Shown piece by piece: positions 32,601 to 34,448 of a DNA stretch of 64,000 bases. The stretch lies in assembly GCF_013315695.1 (NCBI RefSeq), contig NZ_CP054353.1, one strand, 5' to 3'. The position numbers were made by a program. This DNA is from Escherichia coli. GTDB lineage: Bacteria > Pseudomonadota > Gammaproteobacteria > Enterobacterales > Enterobacteriaceae. Each line of letters starts with the position of its first letter. Position 1 is the stretch's first letter.

Positions 32601-34448
32601 TACGATCTGATGGCGATCCTCAAAACGCTGGGAGCAGGGCGAGCGCAATTGCGTAAGTTAATCGTCGGTCAGTGGTTGATGGTGCTGGTACTTTCAGCCG
32701 TTACCGGCGGGGCTATAGGTCTGTTGTTCGAAAACGTGTTGATGATGCTGCTCAAACCCGTGCTACCTGCCGCTTTACCTCCTGCCAGCCTCTGGCCGTG
32801 GCTGTGGGCGCTCGGCACCATGACAGTCATCTCGCTGCTGGTGGGGCTGCGACCATACCGCCTGTTGTTGGCAACGCAGCCTTTACGCGTGTTACGTAAT
32901 GATGTGGTTGCAAACGTCTGGCCGCTGAAGTTTTATCTGCCGATTGTCAGTGTGGTGGTTGTGTTACTGCTCGCCGGACTGATGGGCGGCAGTATGCTGC
33001 TCTGGGCGGTGCTGGCGGGCGCGGTAGTACTGGCTTTGCTGTGCGGTGTCCTGGGCTGGATGCTGCTGAATGTACTTCGCCGCATGACGCTGAAATCGCT
33101 GCCTCTGCGCCTGGCGGTTAGCCGCCTGTTACGTCAGCCGTGGTCAACGTTAAGCCAGCTTTCGGCATTTTCGCTCTCCTTTATGCTGCTGGCACTGCTG
33201 CTGGTGTTGCATGGCGATCTGCTCGACCGCTGGCAGCAGCAGCTACCGCCAGAAAGCCCGAACTACTTTTTAATTAACATCGCCACAGAACAGGTAGCAC
33301 CGCTAAAAGCGTTCCTCGCGGAACATCAGATAGTCCCGGAATCGTTTTATCCGGTGGTGCGGGCGAGACTGACGGCGATTAACGGCAAGCCGACAGAAGG
33401 CAATGAAGATGAGGCGCTCAATCGCGAACTCAATCTTACCTGGCAAAATACGCGGCCCGATCATAATCCGATTGTCGCCGGTAACTGGCCGCCAAAAGCC
33501 GATGAAGTGTCGATGGAAGAGGGGCTGGCGAAACGCTTAAACGTTGCCCTCGGTGATACCGTGACTTTTATGGGCGATACCCAGGAGTTCCGCGCTAAAG
33601 TGACCAGCCTGCGCAAAGTGGACTGGGAAAGTCTGCGGCCTAATTTCTATTTTATTTTCCCTGAAGGGGCATTAGACGGGCAACCGCAGAGCTGGCTTAC
33701 CAGTTTCCGCTGGGAGAATGGCAACGGCATGTTGACGCAACTCAACCGCCAGTTCCCTACCATTAGCCTGTTAGACATTGGCGCGATTTTAAAACAGGTC
33801 GGTCAGGTGCTGGAGCAGGTAAGTCGGGCGCTGGAAGTGATGGTAGTGCTGGTCACTGCCTGCGGTATGTTGCTGTTGCTGGCACAGGTGCAGGTGGGAA
33901 TGCGTCAGCGTCATCAGGAGCTGGTGGTGTGGCGCACACTCGGTGCGGGCAAAAAACTGCTGCGCACGACATTGTGGTGTGAGTTCGCCATGCTCGGGTT
34001 TGTTTCTGGCCTGGTGGCCGCAATTGGTGCGGAAACGGCACTGGCAGTGTTGCAGGCGAAAGTGTTTGATTTCCCGTGGGAGCCAGACTGGCGATTGTGG
34101 ATTGTGCTGCCGTGCAGCGGTGCACTGCTGCTGTCGCTTTGCGGCGGCTGGCTGGGTGCGCGACTGGTTAAGGGTAAGGCGCTGTTCAGGCAGTTTGTGG
34201 GGTGATGACAGTCGTTAGATTGCCTGATGCGCTACGCTTATCAGGCCTACGAGGATCGTGCAATATATTGATTTTGCAAGATTGTGTAGGCCGGATAAGG
34301 CGTTTACGCCGCATCTGGCAGTTGTGCGCCGATGCCAGATGCGACGCAGGCGCGTCTTATCATGCCTACGAAACAGCACTCACCTGTAGGCTGGATAAGG
34401 CGTTCACGCCGCATCCGGCATGAACAGCGTGCACAGAATCCCCCATCA

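What the first reader, a model, noticed from the sequence alone, without database searches (positions are those of the whole stretch)
34206..34445. ybbP joins mnmH through a REP cluster with no intervening Rhs element
Seen: only 240 bp of REP-rich sequence separates the ybbP stop from the mnmH stop. From memory, K-12 carries the rhsD element and associated ORFs between these genes. Inference: this genome has the Rhs-free arrangement, and the REP cluster marks the empty site.
Basis: partly seen in the sequence, partly recalled or inferred. Interest (0 to 1): 0.25.

Follow-up and report, generated by a model that had tools for sequence, protein, structure and literature searches.

The report
Rhs-free ybbP–mnmH spacer of REPs
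The 240 bases between the ybbP and mnmH genes are an ordinary cluster of four repeated palindromes (REPs), the old island-free form of a spot where about half of E. coli strains, including K-12, carry the RhsD toxin element; this variation is already known.

Summary
ybbP ends at 34205 and mnmH at 34446. The 240 bp between them hold four REP palindromes in alternating orientation (z1-L-y-s-z2-l-y), which is an "atypical BIME".

K-12 has a 7.3-kb RhsD element at exactly this position. The REP cluster is not a scar or an attachment site. K-12, O157 and 55989 (Rhs) and ST131 (a different island) have no REP left there, because the whole spacer is replaced from stop codon to stop codon.

State of the site in 5,426 complete E. 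coli genomes:
- 2,859: Rhs junction.
- 574: a type VI secretion (Hcp-Tle1 plus DUF2931) island.
- 1,899: the two genes lie within 1.1 kb. About 1,350 of these carry a dinQ-like type I toxin module.
- About 273 (5%): this 4-REP allele.

Other island-free alleles have 0, 2 or 6 REPs. E. albertii has the same four-REP layout, and Buttiauxella has the genes directly adjacent. The island-free state is therefore ancestral and Rhs is the derived insertion, as Jackson et al. 2009 already inferred.

The likely function is generic for REPs: RNA 3'-end hairpins for two convergent genes that lack an intrinsic terminator, plus IHF and gyrase sites. This is a known polymorphism of low interest.

The parts
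31791..34205 (+). ybbP (ABC transporter permease subunit). It ends in the tandem stops TGA TGA (34203-34208).
   Evidence: NCBIfam NF041854 equivalog, 1458 bits. Annotated ybbP in MS 21-1, which is 100% identical over 33706-34945.
34206..34445 (.). The 240-bp convergent intergenic spacer. It is the island-free, 4-REP allele of the hypervariable ybbP|mnmH site.
   Evidence: About 273 of 5,426 genomes carry this allele (324 minus 51).
34222..34250 (+). REP 1, z1 type (GCCTGATGCGCTACGCTTATCAGGCCTAC).
   Evidence: Tail match with 0 mismatches. The type is assigned by my reading against the z1/y/z2 scheme summarised in PMC3333891.
34251..34285 (.). L linker of the BIME-1 part. It carries an exact IHF consensus, AATCAATATATTG, at 34261-34273 (-).
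   Evidence: WATCAANNNNTTR match. The window has 5 matches against 1.85 expected, so the match alone is weak. Rfam ES036/CssrF RF02751 scores 40.3 bits (gathering 37.6) at 34243-34285 (-). PMC3333891 states that the BIME-1 L linker frequently carries an IHF site.
34286..34320 (-). REP 2, y type. It is the first copy of a 36-nt direct repeat.
   Evidence: the repeat finder family D1: 34285-34320 and 34385-34420, 92% identical, spaced exactly 100 bp.
34321..34333 (.). Short linker between REP 2 and REP 3, which sit tail to tail.
   Evidence: Sequence. Inverted repeat I3, 21-nt arms 12 nt apart.
34334..34369 (+). REP 3, z2 type (GCCAGATGCGACGCAGGCGCGTCTTATCATGCCTAC).
   Evidence: Tail match with 1 mismatch. 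REP 2 plus REP 3 match Rfam naRNA4 RF02564 at 70 bits (gathering 59.5) over 34289-34366 (+).
34370..34385 (.). Linker between REP 3 and REP 4, which sit head to head.
   Evidence: Sequence.
34386..34420 (-). REP 4, y type. It is the second copy of the 36-nt direct repeat.
34421..34445 (.). Unique right-hand segment TGAACAGCGTGCA|CAGAATCCCCCA. The bar (34433|34434) is where other alleles carry a 110-bp terminator segment, with or without the dinQ-like module.
   Evidence: Alignment of alleles.
34446..35540 (-). mnmH (selU/ybbB), tRNA 2-selenouridine synthase, 364 aa.
   Evidence: NCBIfam NF008749 equivalog, 754 bits.

Best explanation
The 240 bp are the ancestral-type, island-free spacer between the convergent genes ybbP and mnmH. 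The spacer consists almost entirely of one atypical BIME: a BIME-1 unit (z1, L linker with IHF site, y) fused to a BIME-2-like unit (short linker, z2, linker, y).

Evolution. This spacer is one allele of a hypervariable site. Different lineages hold different contents between the two stop codons: the RhsD element, an Hcp-Tle1/DUF2931 type VI effector island, a dinQ/agr-like type I toxin module, or 0 to 6 REPs. It is shown that the alleles differ from stop codon to stop codon. It is inferred that they are swapped as whole cassettes by homologous recombination in the conserved flanking genes. It is also inferred that REP number changes in 100-bp steps by recombination or slippage between the directly repeated y REPs. 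The Rhs element is a later gain in the lineage that includes K-12. This genome never had it, or received the old allele back by recombination.

Function, inferred from what is established for REP/BIME elements. Neither gene has an intrinsic terminator here. The REP hairpins would then form the structured 3' ends of both transcripts, acting as barriers to 3' exonucleases and as partial terminators. At the DNA level the element would offer an IHF site (L linker) and a gyrase-type BIME-2 site between two converging transcription units.
For: Anatomy: four alternating REPs. An IHF consensus lies in the L linker. Rfam ES036 and naRNA4 both score above gathering. The scheme of z1/y/z2 REPs, the L linker with IHF, chimeric 'atypical' BIMEs and strain-to-strain copy-number variation is described in PMC3333891.

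Ancestry: E. albertii has the same z1-L-y-s-z2-l-y order and the same right-hand junction, with 89% identity over 280 aligned positions. Convergent ybbP/mnmH adjacency with 65-133-bp spacers occurs in Buttiauxella and in Enterobacteriaceae RIT691. Jackson et al. 2009 (PMC2935791) place the origin of the rhs locus at the ybbA-ybbB position after the split from the B2/D-type strains.

Cassette behaviour: K-12, ST131 and the REP alleles diverge within 1-2 nt of the ybbP stop. They stay divergent up to the mnmH stop codon (K-12) or just inside the 3' end of mnmH (ST131). No REP tail remains in any of the four island-bearing genomes examined.

Step changes: the 140-bp allele equals the 240-bp allele minus exactly one 100-bp y-to-y unit. 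The 913-bp allele equals the 711-bp allele plus two such units. The 130-bp allele lacks the z1-L-y-s part.

Counts: 2,859 Rhs junctions, 574 Hcp islands, 1,899 genomes with the genes within 1.1 kb and 592 within 580 bp. The 324 minus 51 calculation gives about 273 genomes with this allele.

Structure: no terminator-like or promoter-like site in 33900-34800, but very strong folding on both strands.
Against: Nothing here tests function. There is no expression, 3'-end, IHF or gyrase data for this locus. The IHF consensus match is not significant on its own. The naRNA4 model also hits the other y/z2 pair in the window, at 52688-52765, with a higher score (83 bits). It therefore recognises the repeat class and not a specific gene. 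Ancestry rests on one E. albertii genome and a few outgroups. Recombination between Escherichia species could mimic shared ancestry. E. whittamii carries the Hcp island and Escherichia sp. E1V33 the dinQ-type allele, so several alleles are old. The allele counts come from coverage thresholds on a biased collection with many clinical and laboratory strains. About 94 genomes fit none of the three counted classes.
Confidence: 0.85

Rival explanations
1. Deletion scar: an ancestor of this strain carried the RhsD element, as K-12 does, and lost it. The REP cluster would be what was left or what healed the break.
For: Rhs elements are gained and lost among E. coli strains (PMC2935791). Rhs is the majority state in today's complete genomes, at 2,859 of 5,426.
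Against: No Rhs-bearing genome examined has any REP at either flank from which such a scar could derive. The spacer contains no Rhs, ybbC or ylbG sequence. The same four REPs in the same order occur in E. albertii. Loss by simple deletion cannot recreate them. Only replacement by recombination with an old allele could, and that is the best explanation in other words.
Confidence: 0.04
2. Target site: the REP cluster is the integration site used by the Rhs, Hcp or dinQ cargos. This could work through REP-targeting insertion sequences or the REP-associated tyrosine transposase, which would make the BIME the cause of the hotspot.
For: REPs are known targets of several insertion sequences, and TnpA-REP cleaves and recombines BIMEs in vitro (PMC3333891; PMC1525189 listed). 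Three different toxin cargos sit at this one spacer. The dinQ-like module lies directly next to the last y REP.
Against: The Rhs and Hcp islands have no REP at either border and begin within 1-2 nt of the ybbP stop. The dinQ-like module is flanked by a duplicated terminator-like 27-mer and not by REPs. Its unoccupied form is seen in L014. The REP-free 58-bp allele shares 31 nt with the left end of the Hcp island. In Citrobacter the same gene pair encloses unrelated cargo.
Confidence: 0.07
3. A dedicated small RNA gene: the y/z2 pair (34289-34366) encodes a naRNA4-type nucleoid-associated RNA, and the L linker an ES036/CssrF RNA. These RNAs would be the reason the spacer is kept.
For: Both Rfam models score above their gathering thresholds: 70 against 59.5 bits, and 40.3 against 37.6 bits.
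Against: Both families are themselves built on REP/BIME sequences. The same model scores higher on another BIME in the window (83 bits at 52688-52765). No promoter-like site lies in or near the spacer. Many strains lack the y/z2 pair at this site altogether (140-, 58- and 711-bp alleles, and all island alleles).
Confidence: 0.04

Closest known systems
RhsD element of E. coli K-12 (rhs 'position 3', ybbA-ybbB, in Jackson et al. 2009, PMC2935791; Rhs elements of C. W. Hill and colleagues)
   Same: It occupies the same chromosomal site, between the ybbP stop and the mnmH/selU stop. Its presence or absence among strains is already documented.
   Different: The window has none of it. There is no rhs core, ybbC, ylbH/ybbD tips or ylbG, and no Rhs sequence remnant. 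It is the alternative allele and not a member of the family.
BIME-1 / RIB-RIP elements (z1, L linker with IHF site, y; Boccard & Prentki 1993; Bachellier et al. 1994, as summarised in PMC3333891)
   Same: [quoted passage not shown] Rfam ES036 hits the linker.
   Different: BIME-1 elements are described as single-copy units. Here one is fused to a second REP pair, which makes the whole an 'atypical' chimera.
BIME-2 and REP325/naRNA4 (y and z2 REPs in tandem; gyrase-binding; Rfam RF02564)
   Same: A y/z2 tail-to-tail pair scores 70 bits on RF02564. The 100-bp unit varies in copy number between strains at this locus, with 0, 1 or 2 extra units.
   Different: There is only one y-z2-y unit here. 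Gyrase binding and RNA production are untested.
BIME copy-number polymorphism in E. coli intergenic regions (Bachellier et al. 1997, Genetics 145:551, cited in PMC3333891)
   Same: [quoted passage not shown] That is what the 130/140/240 and 711/913 allele series shows.
   Different: At this locus the BIME variation is superimposed on whole-spacer replacement by three kinds of toxin cargo.

Membership tests
REP/BIME (atypical BIME) | Imperfect palindromes of about 30-37 nt ending in the conserved CTAC/GTAG tail, of the z1, y and z2 types | tested here: met
   Four tails match with at most 1 mismatch. The sequences read as z1, y, z2, y. Typing was done by eye against the published scheme.
REP/BIME (atypical BIME) | Successive REPs in alternating orientation, separated by linkers | tested here: met
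   Strands are +, -, +, -. Linkers are 35, 13 and 16 nt.
REP/BIME (atypical BIME) | Extragenic position, typically at the 3' ends of transcription units | tested here: met
   The cluster lies wholly between two convergent stop codons.
REP/BIME (atypical BIME) | High copy number in the genome | tested here: met
   Ten tails in 64 kb against 0.32 expected. The spacer query hit 15-64 places per genome (median 39, capped by the 40-piece limit per record).
REP/BIME (atypical BIME) | L linker bound by IHF; BIME-2 part bound and cut by DNA gyrase | not testable with these tools
   Only an exact IHF consensus at 34261-34273 is seen. Binding is not measurable here.
Rhs element (RhsD) | An rhs core gene (YD repeats, about 1,400 aa) with a variable tip and immunity gene between ybbP and mnmH | tested here: not met
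   The spacer is 240 bp, with no ORF of that kind and no similarity to the K-12 island.
naRNA4 (Rfam RF02564) | Score at or above the family's gathering threshold | tested here: met
   70 bits against 59.5. The model is not locus-specific, scoring 83 bits at 52688-52765.
naRNA4 (Rfam RF02564) | A transcribed, processed RNA that associates with HU and the nucleoid | not testable with these tools
   No expression data. No promoter-like site nearby.
Intrinsic (Rho-independent) terminator | A G+C-rich hairpin followed by a T run | tested here: not met
   No terminator-like site in 33900-34800 on either strand. The alternative alleles (L014, strain 042) do carry an A7-hairpin-T7 element that this allele lacks.

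The most novel reading that the evidence does not exclude
The ybbP|mnmH spacer could be a dedicated exchange slot for antagonism cargo: Rhs toxin, an Hcp-fused phospholipase with immunity genes, or a DinQ-like membrane toxin. In that reading the cassettes are swapped between lineages, and the BIME-only allele seen here is the unarmed ancestral state kept by selection. The BIME or its IHF site might then play an active part in cassette turnover.
Probability: 0.1. Interest if true: 0.4.

Novelty: already known. Interest (0 to 1): 0.12.

Why it matters
It matters little for discovery. RhsD presence or absence at this site has been described (PMC2935791), as has strain-to-strain variation in BIME number (PMC3333891). 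The check is useful mainly for annotation. It shows that the spacer is the old allele and not a deletion scar. It gives allele frequencies for the site in 5,426 complete genomes. It also documents that three unrelated toxin cargos alternate at one spacer, which makes the site a convenient typing marker and a small example of a cassette-type hotspot.

Tried and rejected
- I tried to count the 240-bp allele directly with one query. Local tests showed that the 140-bp allele reaches 79-85% coverage with longer flanks, and that the 6-REP-plus-module allele always reaches more than 95%. I therefore used a 40+240 query (324 genomes) and subtracted the genomes with a BIME-2 unit abutting the module (51). 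The result, about 273, is an estimate and not an exact count.
- Literature searches for ybbP plus rhsD and for dinQ with ybbP/mnmH returned nothing on this junction or on the dinQ-like copy.
- The scan for promoters and terminators found nothing.
- I first thought the K-12 island had changed the last codon and the stop of mnmH (R-TAA instead of Q-TGA). I rejected this because the Rhs-free 130-bp allele of strain CM2 has the same ATTACCGCG ending. Only the ST131 island changes the end of mnmH, to 368 aa.
- I assumed the window was strain MS 21-1, which is 100% identical over 1.2 kb. This is rejected for the whole window: the window differs from MS 21-1 by two IS1 copies and a 3.7-kb deletion.
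- The scan of other species returned neither Salmonella nor E. fergusonii, so those outgroups remain unchecked.

Full report
**Observation**

The window holds ybbA (31108-31794) and ybbP (31791-34205) on the + strand, and mnmH (34446-35540) and allS (35609-36535) on the - strand. All four pass NCBIfam equivalog cut-offs by wide margins. The convergent stop codons are separated by exactly 240 bp, 34206-34445.

This spacer holds four REP tails in alternating orientation. The 64-kb window has ten such matches against 0.32 expected by chance. Read against the published scheme (PMC3333891), the order is:
- z1 REP: 34222-34250
- 35-nt L linker with an exact IHF consensus at 34261-34273
- y REP: 34286-34320
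- 13-nt linker
- z2 REP: 34334-34369
- 16-nt linker
- y REP: 34386-34420

The two y REPs are 92% identical direct repeats spaced exactly 100 bp apart. This is an "atypical BIME", a chimera of a BIME-1 and a BIME-2 unit. Rfam agrees. ES036/CssrF matches the L linker (40.3 bits) and naRNA4 matches the y/z2 pair (70 bits), both above gathering. The naRNA4 model scores even higher on another BIME in the window (83 bits at 52688-52765). It therefore recognises the repeat class and not a particular gene.

**Comparison with K-12**

In MG1655, rhsD, ybbC, ylbH, ybbD, ylbI and ylbG (7,301 bp) lie between the ybbP stop and the selU stop. The K-12 sequence departs from the window within two bases of the TGATGA that ends ybbP, and returns only at the mnmH stop codon. 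No REP tail is present anywhere between the two genes in K-12, O157:H7 SS17 or 55989. The Rhs element is therefore not inserted into the REP cluster. It stands in place of the whole spacer.

**Survey of 5,426 complete E. coli genomes**

| State of the ybbP–mnmH site | Genomes |
|---|---|
| K-12-type ybbP-to-rhs junction | 2,859 |
| Hcp-Tle1/DUF2931 island junction | 574 |
| Both genes within 1.1 kb (REP-free synthetic junction query) | 1,899 |
| Both genes within 580 bp | 592 |
| None of the first three classes | about 94 |

The second island was first seen in ST131 strain MB1159. There the site holds a 667-aa Hcp fused to a Tle1-like phospholipase domain, followed by three DUF2931 genes (4.2 kb).

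**Alleles among the short spacers**

| Spacer size | Content |
|---|---|
| 58 bp | no REP |
| 130 bp | z2-l-y |
| 140 bp | z1-L-y; CFT073 and ATCC 25922 have this size |
| 239 bp | two REPs plus a 110-bp segment with an A7-hairpin-T7 element |
| 240 bp | this allele |
| 526, 604, 711 and 913 bp | two or six REPs (the 526-bp allele, seen only, was not sequenced) plus a module that PGAP annotates as dinQ |

The 51-aa product of the module passes the NCBIfam toxin_DinQ equivalog at 38.4 bits. About 1,350 genomes carry this module: 1,349 records matched the module query at 95% identity or more, consistent with 1,899 minus 592.

The 4-REP allele is in about 273 genomes, or 5% (324 minus 51). The window's own haplotype is rare. 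Only 18 genomes are at least 99% identical over the 1.2 kb of flanking coding sequence.

**Direction of change**

A scan of one genome per species shows that convergent ybbP/mnmH adjacency is conserved across Enterobacteriaceae. Buttiauxella species have 65-74-bp spacers with a plain hairpin and no REP. An unnamed Enterobacteriaceae isolate has 133 bp.

E. albertii has the same z1-L-y-s-z2-l-y order and the same right-hand junction as the window, with 89% identity over 280 aligned positions. The island-free state, and probably the 4-REP layout itself, therefore predates E. coli.

This agrees with Jackson et al. 2009. They list the ybbA-ybbB position as rhs locus 3 and infer that it arose after the split from the B2/D-type strains, by duplication of another locus. 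Other alleles are old too. E. whittamii has the Hcp-Tle1 island and Escherichia sp. E1V33 the dinQ-type allele. Citrobacter holds unrelated cargo there, a 377-aa protein of unknown family with an NlpA/ABC transporter set.

**How the alleles relate**

- The 140-bp allele equals the 240-bp allele minus one exact 100-bp y-to-y unit.
- The 913-bp allele equals the 711-bp allele plus two such units.
- The 130-bp allele lacks the z1-L-y-s part.

This is the known pattern of BIME copy-number change between strains. I infer recombination or slippage between the direct y repeats.

The dinQ-like module is bounded by a direct repeat of AAACCGACTGTCATGTCGGTTTTTTTA. A single-copy, module-free version exists in L014. 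The window lacks both the module and the 110-bp segment. Its junction is TGAACAGCGTGCA|CAGAAT at 34433|34434.

All large cargos replace the spacer from stop codon to stop codon and carry no mobility genes of their own at the borders. I infer that they spread by homologous recombination in ybbP and mnmH. This was not tested.

**Function**

No intrinsic terminator and no promoter-like site is found in 33900-34800. The spacer nevertheless folds very strongly as RNA on both strands (-115.9 and -112.1 kcal/mol, z = -7.0 and -6.0).

By analogy with established REP biology (reviewed in PMC3333891), the hairpins probably form the protected 3' ends of both convergent transcripts. The DNA probably offers an IHF site and a gyrase-type site between the two converging units. 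None of this can be tested here.

**Verdict**

The REP cluster is the ordinary, old spacer and not a marker left by Rhs. The polymorphism is already in the literature. Interest is low. The only mildly notable point is that three unrelated toxin cargos alternate at this one spacer.

Noticed in passing
window 22818-23585 and 47319-48087: Two IS1 copies (InsA and InsB domains) are absent from the otherwise 99.9%-identical strain MS 21-1. The second stands in place of 3.7 kb of MS 21-1, namely the 5' end of fdrA, allD, allC, allE and the last roughly 30 nt of glxK (L094 12967-16683). The window's strain therefore appears to have an IS1-associated deletion in the allantoin regulon.
   Followed up: partly
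L003 2135-2650 (strain 042); absent from the window at 34433|34434: About 1,350 complete E. coli genomes carry a dinQ/agr-like type I toxin module in the ybbP-mnmH spacer. It is a 51-aa ORF passing NCBIfam toxin_DinQ, with two copies of a CTAGATGAGGACTG repeat as in agrA/agrB, and it is flanked by a duplicated terminator-like 27-mer. A 108-bp internal deletion removes the start of the ORF in the 604-bp allele. No paper in the searched library mentions dinQ together with ybbP, ybbB, selU or mnmH.
   Followed up: partly
L012 15770-19991 (ST131 MB1159); L017 1089-4654 (E. whittamii): A type VI secretion effector island occupies the same spacer in 574 genomes. It is an Hcp fused to a Tle1-like phospholipase domain, plus two or three DUF2931 genes, at 40% G+C. 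In ST131 it alters the 3' end of mnmH, giving 368 aa instead of 364.
   Followed up: partly
L006 601-658 (strain A26): The REP-free 58-bp spacer shares TGTGATAAAGCCGTTTATTTCTACCTGGTAG with the left end of the ST131 Hcp island. It then joins the right-hand junction of the REP alleles. It looks like either the pre-island state of that lineage or a recombinant; this is not resolved.
   Followed up: no
window 52633-52830 and 25716-25759: There are two further REP clusters. One has four REPs (z2/y pairs) between ybcF and purK and gives the best naRNA4 score in the window (83 bits). The other is a two-REP unit next to ybbJ.
   Followed up: no
window 33606-35045: The flanking coding sequence is an uncommon haplotype. 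Only 18 of 5,420 genomes are at least 99% identical over 1.2 kb, and most are 95-99% identical. The same 4-REP spacer also occurs on flanks that are only 96% identical (DS566, Z1323MEC0001). The allele is therefore spread over divergent backgrounds.
   Followed up: no
window about 1-22800, compared with L011 and L094: Upstream of cueR this strain, like O157:H7 SS17, carries a type I secretion system (HlyD-family adaptor plus permease/ATPase). In the MS 21-1 annotation a giant BapA/SiiE-like adhesin gene next to it is marked as a pseudogene. A YadA-family adhesin lies between cueR and ybbJ. None of these genes appears at that place in 55989.
   Followed up: no
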